From: a virus
Lineage: Duplodnaviria > Caudoviricetes
Virus record (IMG/VR): IMGVR_UViG_3300028048_000054
DNA: 64,000 nt
Direction: 5' to 3' (one strand)
Shown: piece by piece, positions 14,591 to 25,668 of the stretch
Layout: every line of letters starts with the position of its first letter
Position numbering within the stretch: the stretch's first letter is position 1
Program-made: the position numbers and the translations under genes
Notes under the pieces: generated by a model
Database searches by the model: none
Seen by the model: only the letters and a program-made list of their open reading frames with translations
What the model was told of the DNA's origin: nothing

Positions 14591-14663
14591 TACCGATGGC
14601 AGGACTTGAACCCGCAATTCAGAGTTCGTAGCTCTGTGTGATGTCCATTTCACTACATCGGTA
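14591..14663 (-). tRNA. tRNA-Arg(ACG)
   Basis: cloverleaf, anticodon arm CAGAG-CTACGAA-CTCTG, T loop TTCAAGT; no encoded CCA. Confidence 0.9.
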
Positions 14664-15117
14664 TTACTTTAACTAAATACGCCGCCAATAAGCAGCAATT
14701 AAAAGCAATCAAATTAGACAAAAATACGTCTAAAAACCAATGTGCTTTAACTTTTATTCTTGTCCAGCCACACAGCCAGGCCAACAATAAGAAAGGAATA
14801 AATACATACCAAGGCTGAATGAAAAATAAACAGAAGTAAGCGGGCAAGCAAGCACTCATAGAGTGACCACTGCATAAACTTTCTCCATCCTTATGTGAGT
14901 AACCGTGTACATAAATTACGTGGTCCCCAACGGTATCACGTGGTCTTGGCTCGTCAAATATTCCTTTCAAAATCTGTACAATTAAATTTCCAATACCATA
15001 TACTACTGCAAATAATACCAATAATTTCCACCCACTTAAAAAGAATATCACGGGCAGTGCTGCTATTGGTAGTAACAAAGTTAGAACATCGCCTAATTTC
15101 TTAATAAAGTTCATCAT
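14653..15117 (-). CDS. PAP2-family membrane phosphatase
   Basis: K...RP, SGH, R...H...DV motifs, TM helices. Confidence 0.88.
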   Translation of the reverse strand: MMNFIKKLGDVLTLLLPIAALPVIFFLSGWKLLVLFAVVYGIGNLIVQILKGIFDEPRPRDTVGDHVIYVHGYSHKDGESLCSGHSMSACLPAYFCLFFIQPWYVFIPFLLLAWLCGWTRIKVKAHWFLDVFLSNLIAFNCCLLAAYLVKVIPM

Positions 15118-15694: not shown

Positions 15695-16287
15695 CGTACC
15701 ACACTTACTTTCGTAAGCAACTTTCGTTTTGTAGTCTGGACTTTATCTTTACCATAGATTTCTCTTTAGGTAGTGCCTGTTAAGTCTCTACACCTTCCAT
15801 TTCTGGATTGGCTCGGTATTCCCATAGGAAAGGGTTCACCGAATTTAAGCACATTCAGTCATAGACTTTCGTCTACGCTGCTCGTCTGTACCATATAGAC
15901 CACTACACTTTCGTGAACAAAACGGACCTCTCTTACCACGTTTTGAATCACTTGCTCTGCGTTGTTGTTGAGCACGTGTCATTGTAAATTTCTTACCACA
16001 ATACACACAAGTTGCAACAACATTATCAGAATACTTAGTAGAGTGTTGTCGTTGATGTTCACCACGAGGAATAACAGTCAAATTATCAAGACTATTATTT
16101 TTCATATTTCCATCTATATGGTGTACATCTTCATATGGTTCTAATGGCCTTCCTAATTTTTCAGCCATTAGTATTCTAGGATAAGATATGACTTTGTGTG
16201 TTACTTTGTCATAACACCGATACCTACCATCTTTATTTACATAGATATTGTATCGTTTTGTGTCTACCATAATATCTTCCTATATCC
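15695..16287 (-). mobile_element. group I intron (IC3-like) in tRNA-Leu anticodon
   Basis: exon ends in U, intron ends in G; core P AATTCGGTGAA, Q AATACCGAGC, R GTGTAGAGACTTAA, S AAGATAAAGTCC; P2 and P3 pairings present. Confidence 0.92.
15845..16270 (-). CDS. intron-encoded HNH homing endonuclease
   Basis: LGRPL...VHHIDGN..NN..DNL...H plus CxxC...CxxxC zinc motif. Confidence 0.9.
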   Translation of the reverse strand: MVDTKRYNIYVNKDGRYRCYDKVTHKVISYPRILMAEKLGRPLEPYEDVHHIDGNMKNNSLDNLTVIPRGEHQRQHSTKYSDNVVATCVYCGKKFTMTRAQQQRRASDSKRGKRGPFCSRKCSGLYGTDEQRRRKSMTECA

Positions 16288-16525: not shown

Positions 16526-16600
16526 TACCCTCGGTGGGACTCAAACCCACAAGCCTTGGAGGTAGAAGCTCCACGTGCTATTCAATTACACCACGAGGGC
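16526..16600 (-). tRNA. tRNA-Arg(TCT)
   Basis: TGGAG-CTTCTAC-CTCCA. Confidence 0.88.
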
Positions 16601-17123
16601 GTTTAAATCCATTATCTTTTCTAGTTCGTACTGTCTTTGGGTCAATTCCATAATCTTTAACCCATTTAACAATTGTCTTGTCAGACACACCATATTTCTT
16701 TCCAACTGCTACATATGAACTAGTTTTTATTTCTTTTATTAATGTGTCTGCATCAGGTCTTTCACATCTTCTACTTCTTAATCCCCTACAATGCTTACAC
16801 ATAATAGCACCAGCACACATTTCTTTTCCACATACTGGGCATATTCGTGACCTTTTTATAGCAACAAATATATGTGGTTGAATTTCTTCCACATCACATC
16901 CCTTATGAAAAGCACTGTGGTCATTATTAGTTGCAAATATCATTAAATTCTCAGGTCTGTTATCACGTTTATTCAAATTTATATGATGTACGTGTTCTTC
17001 TGGTTTTAAATAACGCCCAATCATTTCTTCTGCAACTAATCTATGTTCTGCTACACACCCATTTGTCTTTGCGTGTGGGTGAGTTGGTACATAAACATAC
17101 TTATAGTCAATTCGTTTTGCCAT
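16578..17123 (-). CDS. free-standing HNH endonuclease with zinc ribbon and HTH
   Basis: EHRLVAE..IGRYL...VHHIN..KRDNRPENL. Confidence 0.9.
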   Translation of the reverse strand: MAKRIDYKYVYVPTHPHAKTNGCVAEHRLVAEEMIGRYLKPEEHVHHINLNKRDNRPENLMIFATNNDHSAFHKGCDVEEIQPHIFVAIKRSRICPVCGKEMCAGAIMCKHCRGLRSRRCERPDADTLIKEIKTSSYVAVGKKYGVSDKTIVKWVKDYGIDPKTVRTRKDNGFKRPRGVIE

Positions 17124-18119: not shown

Positions 18120-18138
18120 CTTTAATTTTCAAATATAT

Positions 18139-18225
18139 CGGAAGCGGAAGGATTTGAACCTTCGAACCCTTTCGGATTGCTCGTTTAGTAGACGAGTGCT
18201 TTCGACCAGACTCAGCCACGCTTCC
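18139..18225 (-). tRNA. tRNA-Ser(ACT)
   Basis: GGAAGCG acceptor, CTCGT-CTACTAA-ACGAG, long V arm, G73. Confidence 0.88.
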
Positions 18226-18228
18226 AAA

Positions 18229-19582: not shown

Positions 19583-19870
19583 TTATTTTTCTTTCGCAAT
19601 ATCAAAGACTAATAATGCTAAAACACCAAATAAGATGAAAGCACCAATTTTGTCAATGAAAGGTAGTGCTAACCAATTCCAAGCAAACACAGCCAATGCG
19701 ATTGCTGCTAATTTATGCCAAGAATTAAAGATTGCGAAAAAGTAATGTAACAATGCAGCAAAGAATTGTAACACTGCTTTCACTACTTCTTTTACTACTT
19801 TCCATACTTTAACATACCATTTTTCGGATGCCATAGTATTCTCCTTAACTTGCAAACACAGCAGCGGCAA
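19583..19870 (-). CDS. small membrane protein (probable start MASEKW)
   Basis: two to three hydrophobic helices, AGGAG SD. Confidence 0.7.
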   Translation of the reverse strand: MPLLCLQVKENTMASEKWYVKVWKVVKEVVKAVLQFFAALLHYFFAIFNSWHKLAAIALAVFAWNWLALPFIDKIGAFILFGVLALLVFDIAKEK

Positions 19871-20408
19871 TTACGGTAGTCCATACACCATCTGCACAAA
19901 TAGCCGACTGTGTTATATTTGTGGTCTTAACAATCTTACCACTCATTTTCCAAATCTGTTCTTTTTGGTCCCAGGTTGCTTCATTATCAAAGTCTAAACC
20001 TAAAGTTGTAGATAACATTAGTGCTGCTAAATCTTCCGCATAATCACCTGCTTGTTTATCAGTTTCACCAAAAGAGTGGTGTTCAGATAAATAGCCATAG
20101 TGTGAAGAATCTTTAGGAATAGCAACACCAACTGAAGCGGAGACTAATCTGTGTGCTTCATTACAGGTATTTCTACTGATAACACAATGCAAGATTTGTC
20201 CTGGCTTTAATAATTTCACACCTTTATCTTTTGTTATAATTTTACATTTAGGTGGGAAAATACTTGATACTGGAACAATATTGTAGCAAGCAATTTTAGC
20301 ATCTCTCAATGCTTCTTCAAAACTTGCTAATTTTTCTTTATGTCTTCCAATTCCTTTTGTCAGGAATATTTCTTTCGGTACAAATGCTTCGTACATTGTG
20401 CTCTCCAT
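19845..20408 (-). CDS. pdaD: pyruvoyl-dependent arginine decarboxylase
   Basis: SFEEALRDA.IA.YNIVPVSSIFPP (Ser-Ser self-cleavage site), YGYLSEH, WTTVIAAAV. Confidence 0.9.
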   Translation of the reverse strand: MESTMYEAFVPKEIFLTKGIGRHKEKLASFEEALRDAKIACYNIVPVSSIFPPKCKIITKDKGVKLLKPGQILHCVISRNTCNEAHRLVSASVGVAIPKDSSHYGYLSEHHSFGETDKQAGDYAEDLAALMLSTTLGLDFDNEATWDQKEQIWKMSGKIVKTTNITQSAICADGVWTTVIAAAVFAS

Positions 20409-21312: not shown

Positions 21313-21314
21313 AA

Positions 21315-22195
21315 TAAGAAGAGATAGTTTTACACCTTATCTCCAAGGGTGGTAGGTTATGGTGAGGTGGCGTTAACAAGGAGCGATTGCCATAACTCAA
21401 ATAGACTCCAACCACCTTGATGTACATCTACTAGTTTTCTACGATAGTTAGTGTGCTGACCATCACAGCCATCTCCACATCCGAGGTGTCTTATAGAGTC
21501 TCTAACTATAGGAATAATTAGATTACTATTCTTAGACGAACTTTCCCATCGAAGTAGAAAATTACAGGTACGATTCTCCCTATATAATTCCCACACCCAT
21601 ACCAGGAAGTGCAGACCAGTTTATTGGTTTATATAAGAAAGTATATATTTTAAAGCGTCCTATACCGAGACACTAGGGACAGGTCTTTGATAAGTGCTGA
21701 GTTGCCCCCGAGACATTTGCACTAAAAATTGTGGGTGATTACCGTACACCCCTACTGACTATGTAGACGTACTTTATTTAGTGCTAAAGTATAAACTCAC
21801 AGGTTATGGTCCCTGACACCCCTTATAGGTACGTATACAAGGTCTGACGGATGCTTGCAGTCCTTGGCGCATCTACCAAGTATTCCTCACCACTTTCTTT
21901 TAGGTAATTACTCCTACTGTACTTATGGACTTCTTGGAAAAATTGTATTGAAGTTCTCCTATTCAATCCTGTAATCAGCAGAGGTGTTTTCTTTAGTCCA
22001 AAAACATAATCTCGTCAGATGTTATGAAGTGTATCTGCAAACACGCAATTGATGATGTAGCACCACCCTGCATTGTATGATTCTCGGATAATGCAGTACC
22101 GAGGGGATTAAGACCATTTTATATGAGTTGTGCAATCCCAAACCGTAATCTCATATCTTATTAAATGGTGATTGGATTCACCTACCAACCACATT
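21315..22195 (-). ncRNA. candidate large, pseudoknot-rich ncRNA
   Basis: ~870 nt without credible ORF; many hairpins and 6-8 bp long-range complementarities. Confidence 0.6.
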
Positions 22196-22196
22196 C

Positions 22197-22566
22197 AGTA
22201 GTAAGCCGAAGGGTGTGTATTTTAACTATGGGTTACACACTACCCACGAAGTACTTCCCATTTTATTGTGTTGTCCGTGACTTCTTAGCCTTTCACAAAG
22301 TTAATAAATCGGCCCAGACCGTCGTAAGGGCTTTTTGAGGTACTACTAATTGGATGTGCTCGATTTGACACCATATTTCATCAGTATTTCACTGACCTTC
22401 CAAGTTTCGTCGGGTTTCAGGTTAAATCCACCCAGTCTCCTCTATCGACTTCTGCTCTCCAGTCCACTTTCAACCTGGTACCTTGGTAGGACCCACACTT
22501 GAGCAAATCTTTTCCATTCTGAGTGGCACGATACACCCTCTGGGTAAATGCTAATGCCACTTAGAA
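22197..22566 (-). ncRNA. two to three further compact structured RNAs
   Basis: TAGTAGTA/TACTACTG-closed domain with pseudoknots (22197-22348); TGCTC/GAGCA-closed domain (~22355-22510); hairpin 22517-22566. Confidence 0.5.
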
Positions 22567-22649
22567 TGGAGCTGGAGGTGGGACTCGAACCCACGGAGCT
22601 TTCGCGACGGTTTACAAAACCGTTCCTATTGCCACTAAGGGACTCCAGC
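22567..22649 (-). tRNA. tRNA-Thr(TGT), atypical long V arm
   Basis: ACGGT-TTTGTAA-ACCGT, G1-C72, C2-G71, U73 CCA, GC-GAAA-GC V arm. Confidence 0.82.
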
Positions 22650-22653
22650 ATAA

Positions 22654-22802
22654 TTATGGAAGAATAATTATAGTGCACTCATATGCTAACCTATGCTCTA
22701 CTCGTTGAGCTACTCCTCTATATCTGGTAGAGGAGATGGGACTTGCACCCACAACCCCAGGTTCCTATTCAGCGAAGTAAGCACCACTACCGCTTTCCAT
22801 AA
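22654..22802 (-). ncRNA. yrlA: Y RNA, YrlA-type (circularly permuted tRNA-like domain)
   Basis: terminal stem AAGCGG...TATTCT; order T arm (GTGGG-TGCAAGT-CCCAT), closed acceptor (CTCCTCTA-CCAGATA-TAGAGGAG), D arm (TAGCTC-AACGAGTA-GAGC); near Ro60 gene. Confidence 0.88.
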
Positions 22803-22806
22803 AATT

Positions 22807-22928
22807 GGTTTGGTGAGAATATTTAAGTTGGGTTTATTGCAATTGGAGTCGAACCAATATTCTCTTAATCTTCAGTTAAGTGTATAACCTTTATACGATG
22901 CAGCCAACTCAACCGCTTCACCAAAATC
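22807..22928 (-). ncRNA. Y-like RNA carrying a non-permuted tRNA-Phe(GAA)-like body
   Basis: same handle (GAAGCGG...CTGCATCG...AATATTCTC); D arm, CTTAA-CTGAAGA-TTAAG, ATTGG-TTCGACT-CCAAT. Confidence 0.8.
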
Positions 22929-22964
22929 GTTTCAAATTGTCAAATATCTTTTCCTAACAAATAC

Positions 22965-22993
22965 ATTATATCATATTTAATTAGTTTTGTCAA
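22965..22993 (-). promoter_or_regulatory. sigma70 promoter upstream of Y RNAs, followed by boxA-like 17-mer (22932-22948)
   Basis: TTGACA-17-TATAAT; GATATTTGACAATTTGA. Confidence 0.85.
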
Positions 22994-22995
22994 GA

Positions 22996-23120
22996 GGGTT
23001 GGGTGTGCGTCCTAAGTTTTTCTGCTTGCAATGCGTACTTCGTTAGGCACTTAACACTAAACCACTTCCCAACCCATTTGTGTACACCCACTCCTGTCTT
23101 GACGACCTGAGCGTCCTACA
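22996..23120 (-). ncRNA. putative structured RNA
   Basis: GGGTTGGG/CCCAACCC-closed domain plus 5' hairpin; TAGGACGC repeated. Confidence 0.4.
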
Positions 23121-23443: not shown

Positions 23444-25078
23444 TTATTTATGTGTTCTAACTTTTACAATTTTGACAGGTTCTTGATGAATAACTTTTTG
23501 GTTTCCATCAATTCTATCCCAGATGTCAATCATTTGTTTGGCATACAGAGATTCTTTACCTGTCCAACCAGTTAAGATACAGGTTCTGTGTTCATTTTCA
23601 GGGAGTACAGAGTTGTCATAACCTGCTGTTTGTACGGAGAACACATTGACATTTGGATTAACCTTACGTCTATATTCCTGTACCAACTTTAGAACATCAA
23701 TATAGGCTTCATACCCACGACTACCACCATAAGTGTAGTTATGGTACTCACTACCATTTAATCCATACAACCCACCGTGTCCTGCTTGTTGGTCAGAGTA
23801 AATAAAGATGTTGTCATAGTGAATTTTATTGGTAATGGCATCACGGAAGAAAATCCAAATACCATTTTCAGTTGACCCACCTACATAGTTTGAACCACAA
23901 CGACCATAAGTATTATCCATATGTGTCATTTGATTCAAAATACCATCAGTTTTACTTACTGGGTTACCACCTAACTTATCACCAAAGTAATAAACTTCAC
24001 CTTCATCAGAATTTACCGCTGTCATAATAGAGGATAAATTATCGATGTTAGCAATTGTTACACTCCCATATTCAGAGTTAAATGTGTCCCAAGCCGAACC
24101 AGAGTTATCGGATAAGCAAGCAGTTCTTCCTTTTAATTTAGGAAAGTTTGCCATTGCATTATTAATACACATATTCAAGGCATCCATAATTACTGATTTA
24201 CCCTGAAACATCGGCATCTTATCAACAATTTGTAATGCTGTATAATAACGGAAAGGAAATTGTCTACCCTTTTCAACACCACTCAATAACAACTTGGCAA
24301 TTTGTTGTGCTAAATTATAATTGTGTGTTTGTTCCGTAAAAATACCACGCAAGTTTCTCAAGAGTGCCATATGTGGTACGTAGGTAGTTTCTAAAATATC
24401 TGCCCACGATTTTTTCTGCGCTCTTAAAGTTTCCCAAGTTTTTTCTTCGGCTTTGGTTTCAATATTACCAGTTTTCATCAATTCGTTGATGTTTTCATTG
24501 TTTGCGTGGGTAATACGAACCAAGTCAATAATAGAAGCCGTGGTTTTATATTTAGCCAATTGATAACGTGAAAAACCTTCTAATTCTTTTGCCCACACAC
24601 GTTTTAAGATAGTAGGTAAGTGGTTTTTGGTTTTATTGAACATCATCCAGGCTTCAAATTGATTCCAAATGTCGGTGGGGATATTAATAACATCCCGAAT
24701 ACATTTAGACATTAAACCTTTATAATCTTCATTAAATCCTTTGCGGTTTTTGTGCATAGCCGCCCGAATACAAATAATAGCAGGATTTAAGCGCATATTA
24801 TATTCGTTTCTTAATTTAACGGCTAATTCAATGGTTGCTTTAAAATTAAAATCTAATGACACATCAATTGCGGCAATAAATTTTTGTGCGTTTTCATTAA
24901 TACCACCTTTTTCGTAGTATTTAGGTTCCCCAAAGATTGCTGACGCTGCAATCATCTCCAAGTTTAATAATGGATTAACGGTATAACTAATACCATCCAT
25001 ATAATTAACTACTTGTTCCCCTTCGTGTTTTCTGTAATCTGCTTCCGATTTTTTTGCATATGTTTTTAGTCTGCTCAT
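23444..25078 (-). CDS. rsr: Ro60/Rsr TROVE-domain RNA-binding protein
   Basis: YQLAKY, DLVRITH, TWE, MALLRNLR, FPFRY TROVE motifs; vWA MIDAS DNSGS and SDQQ. Confidence 0.92.
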   Translation of the reverse strand: MSRLKTYAKKSEADYRKHEGEQVVNYMDGISYTVNPLLNLEMIAASAIFGEPKYYEKGGINENAQKFIAAIDVSLDFNFKATIELAVKLRNEYNMRLNPAIICIRAAMHKNRKGFNEDYKGLMSKCIRDVINIPTDIWNQFEAWMMFNKTKNHLPTILKRVWAKELEGFSRYQLAKYKTTASIIDLVRITHANNENINELMKTGNIETKAEEKTWETLRAQKKSWADILETTYVPHMALLRNLRGIFTEQTHNYNLAQQIAKLLLSGVEKGRQFPFRYYTALQIVDKMPMFQGKSVIMDALNMCINNAMANFPKLKGRTACLSDNSGSAWDTFNSEYGSVTIANIDNLSSIMTAVNSDEGEVYYFGDKLGGNPVSKTDGILNQMTHMDNTYGRCGSNYVGGSTENGIWIFFRDAITNKIHYDNIFIYSDQQAGHGGLYGLNGSEYHNYTYGGSRGYEAYIDVLKLVQEYRRKVNPNVNVFSVQTAGYDNSVLPENEHRTCILTGWTGKESLYAKQMIDIWDRIDGNQKVIHQEPVKIVKVRTHK

Positions 25079-25092
25079 TTCTAATCTCCTAA

Positions 25093-25180
25093 GTCCGAGA
25101 ATATTGATGACGATTGTTTGTTATTGGTTTTAATGTTTAACATACATTTCCACGATGTAATCGTCAAGGCCGCTTCGTAC
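25093..25180 (-). ncRNA. short Y-like RNA immediately 5' of the Ro60 gene
   Basis: GAAGCGG-stem-TTACATCG...stem-AATATTCTC handle with A-rich insert. Confidence 0.78.
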
Positions 25181-25203
25181 AAAAATCGTTGGCCTTTTAA
25201 ATT

Positions 25204-25275
25204 TGCCGACTGATGGAATTGAACCACCTACGCTTGCCTCTTCAGGGCAACGCTCTACCGATGAGCTAAGTCGGC
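25204..25275 (-). tRNA. tRNA-Phe(GAA)
   Basis: TTGCC-CTGAAGA-GGCAA. Confidence 0.92.
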
Positions 25276-25387: not shown

Positions 25388-25460
25388 TAGCAGGGACAGG
25401 AATCGAACACTGTTTTTTCTTGGTTATGGGCCAAGCAAGATACCTTACCTTCCCCCTGCG
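25388..25460 (-). tRNA. tRNA-Met(CAT), initiator-like, C33
   Basis: C1 x U72 mismatch, CTTGG-CCCATAA-CCAAG. Confidence 0.8.
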
Positions 25461-25668
25461 GTCAAATTGTCAAATATCAAAATAACTGCCCATTTTAGGG
25501 GGCTATATAATGTTTGAGTGTATACCATTTTAACTTTTGGTGGGGACTTGTTTCTTATGTTACCATCCCCACCTAACCCTAAAATGTACCAGAAATCAAA
25601 CCCTGTTCAATAATAGTATGTTTTAGTTTGTATGGTACAAATGTTGATTGGTCACTCTCAACAAAAAC

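What the first reader, a model, noticed from the sequence alone, without database searches (positions are those of the whole stretch)
22807..22928. 'Inverted' Y RNA: Ro handle grafted on the acceptor end, displaying a Phe anticodon
Seen: D arm, anticodon arm CTTAA-CTGAAGA-TTAAG and canonical T arm in normal tRNA order. The acceptor stem is only 4 bp (TGCA/TGCA) and continues into the Y RNA handle, with no CCA end. The loop CTGAAGA is identical to that of the real phage tRNA-Phe (25204-25275). This is the topological opposite of YrlA, where the handle replaces the anticodon arm. I do not recall this architecture being described. Inference: an unchargeable anticodon decoy for an anticodon nuclease, modification enzyme or synthetase. 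It is the first RNA after its own promoter.
Basis: partly seen in the sequence, partly recalled or inferred. Interest (0 to 1): 0.9.

Follow-up and report, generated by a model that had tools for sequence, protein, structure and literature searches.

The report
Phage Y RNA carrying whole tRNA body
A 117-base RNA gene next to a phage Ro60-type gene is a complete tRNA shape whose amino-acid-accepting end is replaced by the stem that Ro60 partner RNAs (Y RNAs) share, so it is most likely a non-decoding tRNA look-alike docked on Ro60, a form of Y RNA I found described in no paper.

Summary
On the minus strand, 22925..22809 folds into a two-helix handle that closes a complete D / anticodon / T cloverleaf. 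The acceptor stem is only 4 bp and no CCA is encoded. A consensus promoter lies just upstream.

The handle is shared with the neighbouring YrlA-like RNA and with a third RNA in the Ro60 leader. Its motif occurs 3 times in the window against 0.00 expected.

I found 15 distinct homologues in uncultured phage contigs whose Ro60 is 60-81% identical. All lie just downstream of a Ro60 gene on the same strand. Covariation supports every helix: 96% of cells pair and 23 of 35 pairs show compensatory changes.

It is not a working tRNA:
- The anticodon changes between near-identical relatives (GAA to UAA, UUU to UGU, UGA to CAA).
- Three relatives have a non-canonical anticodon loop.
- In at least 5 cases the same locus also carries an ordinary tRNA with that anticodon.

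The Y-RNA reading is therefore well supported, although Ro60 binding is inferred. The "anticodon decoy" function is untested, and a Phe-specific version is weakened.

The architecture has a partial precedent in the published model of Deinococcus Yrn1. Earlier unchecked notes of this scan report similar RNAs in other phages. I class it as a new variant of a known kind.

The parts
22965..22993 (-). Sigma-70-type promoter: TTGACA (22993-22988), 17-nt spacer with TG, TATAAT (22970-22965)
   Evidence: 12 of 12 consensus match. The same TTGACA-17-TATAAT lies upstream of the orthologous RNA in L002, L005 and L006. No RNA data are available.
22932..22948 (-). Conserved leader motif GATATTTGACAATTTGA between the promoter and the handle
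   Evidence: Its first 15 nt recur at 25478-25464, upstream of a weak tRNA-like hit. It is conserved in L002 and L005. Function unknown.
22918..22925 (-). Handle helix 1, 5' strand (TTTGGTGA); pairs with 22816-22809
   Evidence: 6 of 8 pairs show compensatory changes and 100% of cells pair.
22913..22917 (-). Invariant AGCGG, the 5' side of the 5x6 internal loop; with the preceding GA it forms GAAGCGG, the presumed Ro60 contact
   Evidence: Invariant in all 15 homologues. It resembles the published Rsr motif GNCGAAN0-1G and cgaAUGC of the Rfam YrlA consensus.
22904..22912 (-). Handle helix 2, 5' strand (TTGAGTTGG); pairs with 22831-22823
   Evidence: 6 of 9 pairs show compensatory changes. RNAalifold also predicts it on the model-free alignment.
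22838..22902 (-). tRNA body: 4-bp acceptor TGCA/TGCA, U8, D arm, anticodon arm (loop CTGAAGA, anticodon GAA at 22873-22871), 5-nt variable loop, T arm
   Evidence: Rfam tRNA model 46.5 bits and ARAGORN tRNA-Phe. The D, anticodon and T stems covary. U8, A14, A15:U48, G18G19 and the TTC of the T loop are kept in all homologues.
22832..22837 (-). Conserved single-stranded junction ATAAAC on the 3' side, where the top of an acceptor stem and the CCA end would be
   Evidence: AATAAA follows the acceptor strand in 14 of 15 homologues; L011 Y4 lacks the U.
22823..22831 (-). Handle helix 2, 3' strand (CCAACTTAA)
22809..22822 (-). 3' side of the internal loop (ATATTC) and handle helix 1, 3' strand (TCACCAAA)
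   Evidence: A (A/T)TTCTC motif is conserved in all Y-type RNAs of the family.
22654..22802 (-). Neighbouring YrlA-like RNA with the same handle type and a permuted tRNA-like module (T arm, closed acceptor-like hairpin with ACCA in its loop, D arm)
   Evidence: Rfam YrlA 27.1 bits, below the gathering score of 69, model positions 23-85. Handle found.
23444..25078 (-). Ro60/TROVE-type protein gene, 544 aa
   Evidence: Pfam TROVE 30.7 bits against a cut-off of 23. 45% identical to Bacillus phage G gp540, annotated as a TROVE ribonucleoprotein. Nearest solved structures are TROVE-domain proteins 9l5y and 9kop.
25090..25182 (-). Third Y-type RNA with the same handle motif, in the leader of the Ro60 gene, without a tRNA body
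   Evidence: The orthologues in L002, L005 and L006 have a perfect 8-bp helix 1.
25204..25275 (-). Ordinary tRNA-Phe(GAA) with a 7-bp acceptor stem and the same anticodon loop
   Evidence: Rfam tRNA 63.6 bits; 7 of 7 Watson-Crick acceptor pairs.

Best explanation
This is a phage Y RNA, a partner RNA of the phage's Ro60-type protein. Its variable module is a complete, non-permuted tRNA mimic. It is not a decoding tRNA.

**Proposed course of events**
1. It is transcribed from its own strong promoter. This rests on the promoter match only.
2. The 5' and 3' ends pair into the family's handle: helix 1, an AGCGG / AUAUUC internal loop, then helix 2. The handle continues through a 1x6 junction into a 4-bp remnant of the acceptor stem. 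The covariation analysis supports this structure.
3. Ro60 docks on the handle through the GAAGCGG strand. This is inferred from gene linkage and from likeness to the known Rsr motif.
4. The tRNA body folds into an L shape, because all elbow-forming nucleotides are kept. It presents its elbow and anticodon arm, while the acceptor end is buried in the handle and cannot be aminoacylated.
5. The body serves as the effector module. It either tethers Ro60, and whatever exonuclease works with it, to a protein that recognises tRNA by its elbow and anticodon arm, or it occupies that protein as a mimic. This is inferred by analogy with the Y RNA that tethers Rsr to PNPase in Deinococcus and with phage phiLo Ro60-Yrl-PNPase.

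The partner is unknown. Different phages and different paralogues display different anticodon arms.
For: **Handle**
- The motif AAGCGG-N8-11-TRCWTCG occurs 3 times in the 64-kb window. All three are on the minus strand between 22773 and 25175, flanking the Ro60 gene. The chance expectation is 0.00.
- Every Y-type RNA beside Ro60 in 14 related loci, including Bacillus phage G, carries the same helix-GCGG-helix-UUACAUCG / AUUCUC frame.
- The layout matches the Rfam YrlA consensus handle, which is a helix, a 5-nt 5' loop, a helix, a small loop and a 4-bp helix.
- GGUGAAG resembles the published Rsr motif GNCGAAN0-1G and the CGAA motif of the phiLo Yrls.

**Linkage to Ro60**
- A pattern scan of viral and metagenome contigs made no use of Ro60. 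Every true member it found has a Ro60 gene directly upstream on the same strand.

**Structure**
- 15 distinct homologues score 88-136 bits with the model, against 46 bits or less for ordinary tRNAs.
- 96.1% of cells pair and 23 of 35 pairs show compensatory changes. A model-free alignment supports the main helices.
- The innermost pair of helix 2 that varies switches between A-U and G-C. In the alternative 7-bp acceptor reading the same base would face an A in every sequence.

**Not decoding**
- The acceptor has 5 of 7 pairs and no CCA, unlike the other 19 tRNAs of the window.
- The anticodon is GAA in the window and UAA in L005, on a body with a short variable loop. By established knowledge, bacterial tRNA-Leu has a long variable arm and PheRS reads G34.
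- UUU changes to UGU on a body that is closest to tRNA-Lys.
- L010, L016 and L029 have an 18-nt anticodon arm whose loop cannot be a canonical 7-nt loop.
- An ordinary tRNA with the same anticodon lies in the same locus for the window (Phe), L008 (Thr and Ser), L012 and L020 (Lys), and L016 (Ser).
Against: - No binding, expression or processing data exist.
- The handle motif has U where the published Rsr motif has C.
- The Rfam YrlA and Deinococcus Y RNA models do not hit this element.
- The 15 homologues fall into three clades, so independent compensatory events are fewer than the cell counts suggest. The alignment used for counting was also fitted to the model.
- The single-sequence fold is unremarkable (z = -1.59).
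- The effector is unknown, so step 5 rests on analogy only.
Confidence: 0.72

Rival explanations
1. Anticodon decoy, the first reader's reading and a special case of the best explanation. The Ro60-bound RNA displays an uncleavable or expendable anticodon arm. This arm soaks up or senses a host tRNA-targeting defence, such as an anticodon nuclease, or an anticodon-reading enzyme. The arm evolves quickly in an arms race.
For: - The anticodon arm is the variable hotspot in one clade. L008 and L010 differ at 12 columns, all inside the arm. Across the clade 11 of 17 arm columns vary against 19 of 102 elsewhere (p = 2e-4).
- The displayed anticodons mostly duplicate those of the phage's own ordinary tRNAs.
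- The loop is identical to that of the real tRNA-Phe in the window.
- The element sits in a large phage tRNA array, a setting linked in the literature to tRNA-targeting defences. I recall this and did not test it here.
Against: - No nuclease, toxin or defence gene is tied to it.
- In the window's own clade the excess of change in the arm is not significant (2 of 17 against 7 of 101, p = 0.38).
- Three members have loops that no longer resemble any anticodon loop.
- Relaxed constraint explains the variability equally well.
Confidence: 0.2
2. Ordinary tRNA-Phe gene whose leader and trailer happen to pair. RNase P and a 3' nuclease would release a roughly 73-nt tRNA that is CCA-tailed and charged.
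For: - Both ARAGORN and the Rfam tRNA model call it.
- The score of 46.5 bits is within the range of other tRNAs of the array.
- 7 of the other 19 tRNAs in the window also lack an encoded CCA.
- M. smegmatis YrlA is cleaved by RNase P and receives CCA in vivo (PMC4201824).
Against: - Acceptor positions 1-72 and 3-70 are mismatched in the window, L002 and L005.
- Helix 2 covaries at positions that a 7-bp acceptor stem would need.
- The anticodon changes are incompatible with the identity of the body, and some loops are non-canonical.
- A proper tRNA-Phe lies 2.3 kb away.
- In Chen et al. 2014, Y RNAs lacking a 7-bp acceptor stem were not cleaved by RNase P.
Confidence: 0.05
3. A real structured RNA whose conserved stem is not a Ro60 site. 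The stem could be a processing or stability clamp, or the binding site of another phage protein. Linkage to Ro60 would then be synteny within the tRNA island.
For: - Ro60 binding is inferred only.
- The motif departs from the published consensus.
- The RNAs are embedded in tRNA operons, where processing signals are expected.
Against: - The same handle frames a YrlA-type module, the hallmark Ro60 partner, in the window, L002, L005, L032 and phage G.
- The handle RNAs keep their place next to Ro60 although the surrounding tRNA genes differ between loci.
- Ordinary tRNAs of the same arrays lack the handle.
Confidence: 0.08

Closest known systems
YrlA, the tRNA-like Y RNA of bacteria and mycobacteriophages (Rfam RF02553; Chen et al. 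2014, PMC4201824)
   Same: - It is encoded beside Ro60 on the same strand.
- The handle has the same layout: helix, 5-nt 5' loop with a YGAA(N)GC motif, helix, small loop, and a 4-bp helix closing a multiloop.
- The module carries tRNA-type T and D arms and elbow nucleotides.
   Different: - In YrlA the order is T arm, closed acceptor-like hairpin, D arm, with the handle in place of the anticodon arm.
- Here the order is D, anticodon, T as in a real tRNA. The handle replaces the acceptor end and a full anticodon arm is displayed.
- The RF02553 model does not hit this element.
Deinococcus radiodurans Yrn1 as modelled by Chen et al. 2014 (PMC4201824)
   Same: The T and D-like elements have the opposite orientation to YrlA, and the stem-loop between them takes the place of an anticodon arm. 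This is the same general topology as here.
   Different: - Yrn1 has no full D arm and no variable region, and its loop has 6 nt.
- The paper offers the tRNA likeness as a model only.
- Here the cloverleaf is complete, scores 46.5 bits with the tRNA model and has a canonical 7-nt loop.
- There is no sequence or Rfam RF01053 match.
Thermus phage phiLo Ro60 with Yrl1 and Yrl2 (PMC12135203)
   Same: A phage-encoded Ro60 has adjacent Y-like RNAs with a stem, bulge and stem carrying a CGAA-type motif. Binding and a complex with host PNPase were shown there.
   Different: - As described in the passages I read, the phiLo Yrls are simple hairpins with no tRNA body.
- The protein is only distantly related (PDB match E = 2e-8).
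Ordinary phage tRNA genes of the same array (Rfam RF00005)
   Same: Cloverleaf, conserved tertiary nucleotides, and an anticodon loop identical to that of the phage's tRNA-Phe.
   Different: - The acceptor stem has 4 bp, with no free end and no CCA.
- The conserved handle is present.
- The anticodon is unstable among close relatives.

Membership tests
Y RNA (Ro60/Rsr partner RNA) | Encoded within a few kb of a Ro60 orthologue, on the same strand | tested here: met
   The Ro60 ORF lies at 23444-25078 (-) and the RNA at 22809-22925 (-), about 520 nt downstream. The same holds in all related loci, including those found by an RNA pattern alone.
Y RNA (Ro60/Rsr partner RNA) | The 5' and 3' ends pair into a long stem interrupted by an internal loop or bulge | tested here: met
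   Helix 1 has 8 bp, the internal loop is 5x6 and helix 2 has 9 bp. 12 of these 17 pairs show compensatory changes.
Y RNA (Ro60/Rsr partner RNA) | Conserved Ro60-recognition motif near the 5' end (GNCGAAN0-1G, or the CGAA motif) | tested here: inconclusive
   GGUGAAGCGG is invariant from GAAGCGG onward. It matches the motif except for U in place of C. It aligns with cgaAUGC of the Rfam YrlA consensus with one base fewer.
Y RNA (Ro60/Rsr partner RNA) | Physically bound by Ro60 | not testable with these tools
   This needs co-immunoprecipitation or a gel-shift assay. No RNA-protein predictor or expression data were available.
YrlA (Rfam RF02553) | Scores with the family covariance model | tested here: not met
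   A sensitive scan of 22640-22960 gave no YrlA hit on this element at E up to 10. Only the neighbour at 22691-22760 hits, at 27.1 bits against a gathering score of 69.
YrlA (Rfam RF02553) | Permuted module: T arm, closed acceptor-like hairpin, D arm, with the handle at the anticodon position | tested here: not met
   The order here is D arm, anticodon arm, T arm, with the handle at the acceptor position.
Elongator tRNA (Rfam RF00005) | Cloverleaf scoring above the gathering score | tested here: met
   46.5 bits against a gathering score of 29.
Elongator tRNA (Rfam RF00005) | 7-bp acceptor stem with a free end | tested here: not met
   4 Watson-Crick pairs plus 1 G-U out of 7. The other 19 tRNAs of the window have 6-7. 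Covariation favours helix 2 over an extended acceptor stem.
Elongator tRNA (Rfam RF00005) | 3' CCA, encoded or added | tested here: inconclusive
   CCA is not encoded here, whereas 12 of the other 19 tRNAs encode it. Addition after processing cannot be tested with these tools.
Elongator tRNA (Rfam RF00005) | Anticodon stable among orthologues and consistent with the identity of the body | tested here: not met
   The changes seen are GAA to UAA, UUU to UGU and UGA to CAA, plus an 18-nt non-canonical arm in three members.
Deinococcus Y RNA (Rfam RF01053) | Scores with the family covariance model | tested here: not met
   No hit in the window scans. The likeness is in topology only, as described in PMC4201824.

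The most novel reading that the evidence does not exclude
These phages carry a small set of Ro60-docked "anticodon displays". They are complete tRNA bodies locked by the handle, and their anticodon arms are exchanged or mutated between closely related phages under conflict with the host. They would act as specificity modules that aim the Ro60 particle at tRNA-targeting defence enzymes, or bait those enzymes. A more speculative version is that they capture particular tRNAs by anticodon-anticodon pairing.
Probability: 0.2. Interest if true: 0.85.

Novelty: new variant of a known kind. Interest (0 to 1): 0.62.

Why it matters
- **Open question.** Y RNAs are known to mimic tRNA, but what the tRNA-like module binds has stayed open since 2014.
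- **A sharper experimental handle.** This form leaves the whole anticodon arm and elbow exposed and buries the acceptor end. Natural variants exist that differ only in the anticodon arm (L008 against L010).
- **Practical consequence for annotation.** tRNA finders call these RNAs tRNA-Phe, Leu, Thr, Lys or Ser. Phage tRNA inventories and codon-usage arguments will therefore count mimics as decoding tRNAs.
- **Evolution.** The family shows Y RNA modules arising repeatedly from the phage's own tRNA genes. One clade's body is closest to tRNA-Lys and another's to long-arm Ser and Leu tRNAs.

Tried and rejected
**Searches that found nothing or could not run**
- blastn of 22600-23100 against 50,697 cultured-phage records gave no match.
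- A protein-seeded scan of viral contigs with Ro60 gave nothing. I used the protein-cluster search and contig look-ups instead.
- No whole genome is held for the window.
- No DNA was available for the contig of P0081.
- A scan of the whole Bacillus phage G genome with model R1 gave a best hit of 40 bits, which is an ordinary tRNA. The only cultured relative therefore lacks this class.

**Hits judged to be chance**
- All 7 pattern hits in genome contigs, and 5 of the 9 in metagenomes (L013-L015, L017, L021), lie in GC-rich sequence that looks coding. They have no cloverleaf and no handle pairing.
- Model R1 hits of 30-46 bits that span the full model are ordinary tRNAs with 7-bp acceptor stems, usually with CCA and without the handle.

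**Readings considered and set aside**
- Pseudogene: rejected because of the compensatory changes across phages whose Ro60 is 60-81% identical to the window's.
- Intron-containing or split tRNA: rejected because the cloverleaf is uninterrupted.
- tmRNA-like RNA: rejected because there is no coding part and no Rfam hit.

**Context and literature**
- Pfam and PHROGs scans of 30 window ORFs found no RNA ligase, kinase-phosphatase or nuclease beside the locus that would point to a partner.
- Literature searches found no description of a Y RNA carrying a complete non-permuted tRNA. The 2020 Annual Review on bacterial Ro60 is not held.

Full report
**1. What is there**

The window is part of a tailed phage. 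It encodes a terminase, a portal and a head protease. The contig that carries its Ro60 protein is about 171 kb long. A long minus-strand tRNA array runs from 14.5 to 25.3 kb, with 20 ARAGORN calls.

A 544-aa TROVE/Ro60-type gene sits inside the array at 23444-25078 (-). It scores 30.7 bits with Pfam TROVE against a cut-off of 23. It is 45% identical to Bacillus phage G gp540. Its nearest solved structures are TROVE-domain proteins.

The finding lies on the minus strand, about 520 nt downstream of that gene. ARAGORN calls tRNA-Phe(gaa) at 22831-22906 and the Rfam tRNA model gives 46.5 bits. Rfam itself marks acceptor pairs 1-72 and 3-70 as non-standard.

The minimum-energy fold of 22935..22800 has the following parts, in order:
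- helix 1 of 8 bp
- a 5x6 internal loop (AGCGG facing AUAUUC)
- helix 2 of 9 bp
- a 1x6 junction (C facing AUAAAC)
- a 4-bp UGCA/UGCA stem that closes a normal D / anticodon / T cloverleaf

A 12-of-12 consensus promoter lies at 22993..22965. The same promoter precedes the orthologous RNA in three relatives.

**2. Is it an ordinary tRNA?**

The other 19 tRNA-model hits in the window have 6-7 of 7 acceptor pairs, and 12 of them encode CCA. This element has 4 Watson-Crick pairs plus one G-U, and no CCA. An ordinary tRNA-Phe(GAA) with a perfect acceptor stem and the identical loop CUGAAGA lies at 25204-25275.

**3. The handle**

The motif AAGCGG-N8-11-TRCWTCG occurs three times in the window. All three are on the minus strand around the Ro60 gene, against 0.00 expected by chance. 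The three carriers are:
- this element
- the adjacent RNA at 22802..22654, whose core is a YrlA-type permuted tRNA-like module (Rfam YrlA 27.1 bits, below the gathering score)
- an RNA in the Ro60 leader at 25182..25090

Bacillus phage G has the same GAAGCGG...ACAGUUACUUC frame in five repeats upstream of its Ro60 gene, and in a YrlA-like RNA.

The Rfam YrlA consensus handle has the same layout: a helix, a 5-nt 5' loop (cgaAUGCu), a helix, a small loop and a 4-bp helix. The published Rsr-recognition motif GNCGAAN0-1G (PMC4201824) resembles GGUGAAG here, with U for C. The phiLo phage Ro60 binds RNAs with a CGAA motif in a stem-bulge-stem (PMC12135203).

**4. Relatives**

The Ro60 protein has thousands of homologues in assemblies. 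I fetched contigs at 81%, 81%, 74%, 63%, 62%, 61%, 60%, 58% and 54% identity to the window's Ro60.

A pattern for handle plus tRNA body, written without reference to Ro60, was scanned over viral, metagenome and genome contigs. The true hits (L011/L020, L012/L018/L019, L016) all have a Ro60 gene directly upstream on the same strand. The remaining hits are chance matches in GC-rich sequence.

A covariance model built from 11 sequences separates two groups cleanly. There are 15 distinct full-length members at 88-136 bits, and everything else scores 46 bits or less. The intermediate hits are ordinary tRNAs with 7-bp acceptor stems, usually with CCA and without the handle.

**5. Covariation**

On the 15 sequences, 96.1% of cells pair and 23 of 35 pairs carry changes on both sides. 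None of 500 shuffles reaches the observed values, and slid controls give at most 7 such pairs.

| Helix | Pairs with compensatory changes |
|---|---|
| Helix 1 | 6 of 8 |
| Helix 2 | 6 of 9 |
| Acceptor | 1 of 4 (G-C to A-U) |
| D stem | 3 of 4 |
| Anticodon stem | 4 of 5 |
| T stem | 3 of 5 |

Two caveats apply. The alignment was fitted to the model, and the sequences form three clades. As an independent check, RNAalifold on the MAFFT alignment predicts helix 1, helix 2, the 4-bp acceptor and the T arm, with 14 of 26 pairs compensatory.

The pair next to the innermost pair of helix 2 switches between A-U and G-C. In a 7-bp acceptor reading the same 5' base would face an A in every sequence. 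The data therefore favour the handle over an extended acceptor stem.

U8, A14, A15:U48, G18G19, the TTC of the T loop and G53-C61 are kept throughout. An L-shaped body is therefore expected.

**6. The anticodon arm**

The loops are as follows.

| Member | Anticodon loop | Reading |
|---|---|---|
| window | CUGAAGA | GAA |
| L002 | CUGAAAA | GAA |
| L005 | CUUAAAA | UAA, on the same short-variable-loop body |
| second clade, L008 | UUUGUAA | UGU |
| second clade, L011 and L012 | UUUUUAA | UUU |
| second clade, L010, L016, L029 | 18-nt arm | cannot form a canonical 7-nt loop |
| third clade (long variable arm) | CUUGAAA | UGA |
| third clade, L011 | CUCAAAA | CAA |

L008 and L010 differ at 12 alignment columns, all inside the anticodon arm, and at none elsewhere. 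In that clade the arm is a hotspot, with 11 of 17 columns variable against 19 of 102 elsewhere (p = 2e-4). In the window's own clade it is not (p = 0.38).

The second-clade body is closest to the phage's real tRNA-Lys even where its anticodon reads UGU.

An ordinary tRNA with the same anticodon is present in the same locus in these cases:
- window: Phe
- L008: Thr and Ser
- L012 and L020: Lys
- L016: Ser

By established knowledge, PheRS uses G34-A35-A36 as identity elements, and bacterial tRNA-Leu has a long variable arm. A G34-to-U change on this body would therefore be harmful in a decoding tRNA, yet it separates two RNAs that differ at only 7 aligned columns. Together these points make a translational role very unlikely.

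**7. Mechanism**

- *Shown by computation:* the structure, its conservation, its linkage to Ro60 and its departure from working tRNAs.
- *Predicted only:* transcription from the promoter.
- *Inferred by analogy:* Ro60 docks on the GAAGCGG strand and internal loop of the handle, as Ro60 and Rsr do on Y RNAs. The tRNA body acts as the effector module, as the loop of Deinococcus Yrn1 does for PNPase and as proposed for YrlA.

Because the acceptor end is buried, the accessible surfaces are the elbow and the anticodon arm. A partner would be something that reads those surfaces. Which partner is open.

The decoy idea fits the arm turnover and the duplication of the phage's own anticodons. It has no direct support, and the non-canonical loops and the non-significant signal in the window's clade count against a simple version of it.

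**8. Comparison with what is known**

YrlA has the same handle logic but the reverse module order, and its model does not hit this element.

Chen et al. 2014 already drew Deinococcus Yrn1 with its D-like and T arms in the opposite orientation to YrlA and with a potential anticodon arm. That arm has a 5-bp stem and a 6-nt loop, and the model has no full D arm and no V arm. The topology therefore has a partial precedent.

I found no paper describing a Y RNA with a complete, tRNA-model-scoring cloverleaf and a canonical anticodon loop.

Earlier unchecked notes of this scan report similar handle-mounted tRNA bodies beside Ro60-like genes in other phage genomes. I did not test those.

**9. Verdict**

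- The element is real and conserved.
- It is most likely a Ro60 partner RNA with a non-permuted tRNA mimic.
- It is a new variant of a known kind.
- Its function beyond "Ro60-docked tRNA mimic" is open.

Noticed in passing
window 21313-22566 (-): A 1.25-kb stretch between tRNA-Thr and tRNA-Ala has no ORF of 90 aa or more and no Rfam family. It is conserved at 90% over 852 nt in L005, and in blocks of 92%, 82% and 73% in L002-L004. It may be a large structured RNA.
   Followed up: partly
window 22654-22802 (-): The YrlA-like neighbour has a 7-bp acceptor-like hairpin whose loop begins with ACCA. In L005 the orthologue has a different T arm and acceptor hairpin on the same handle.
   Followed up: partly
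window 25090-25182 (-): A third handle-bearing RNA without a tRNA body sits in the leader of the Ro60 gene and ends a few bases before its ribosome-binding site. It could couple Ro60 binding to Ro60 translation.
   Followed up: no
window 25464-25478 and 22934-22948 (-): The 15-nt motif GATATTTGACAATTT occurs twice. One copy lies upstream of this RNA and the other upstream of a weak tRNA-like hit at 25389-25459 (26 bits, below the gathering score). It is conserved in L002 and L005.
   Followed up: partly
L008 7849-7966 and L010 7847-7965: Two orthologous handle-tRNA RNAs are identical except for a wholesale replacement of the anticodon stem-loop, 17 nt against 18 nt.
   Followed up: yes
L006 7911-8063: A relative whose Ro60 is 74% identical has a hybrid at the same place, behind the same kind of promoter. 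It consists of the handle, a hairpin with a 7-nt loop (AUGAGAA), a T arm, a closed acceptor-like hairpin and a D-like segment.
   Followed up: partly
L008 7648-8105; L012 3579-4040; L016 4446-3988 (-): In the clade whose Ro60 is about 60% identical, four handle RNAs follow the Ro60 stop codon in tandem. Two are simple and two carry tRNA bodies. No promoter is evident, so they are probably co-transcribed with Ro60.
   Followed up: partly
window 14.6-20.4 kb (-): The tRNA array is interspersed with protein genes: HNH endonucleases (15845-16270, 16578-17123), a PAP2 phosphatase (14653-15117) and a pyruvoyl-dependent arginine decarboxylase (19845-20408).
   Followed up: no
L031 3505-3597 and 4361-4453; L007 9982-11241; L031 901-2097: L031 holds two identical copies of a 93-nt handle RNA. 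TnpB/Cas12f-like genes lie near the Ro60 gene in L007 and L031. ARAGORN also calls a tRNA-SeC(tca) at L031 7893-7967.
   Followed up: no
window 18138-18226 (-): ARAGORN calls a tRNA-Ser with anticodon ACU, which has an unmodified-looking A34. This is unusual for bacteria and phages.
   Followed up: no
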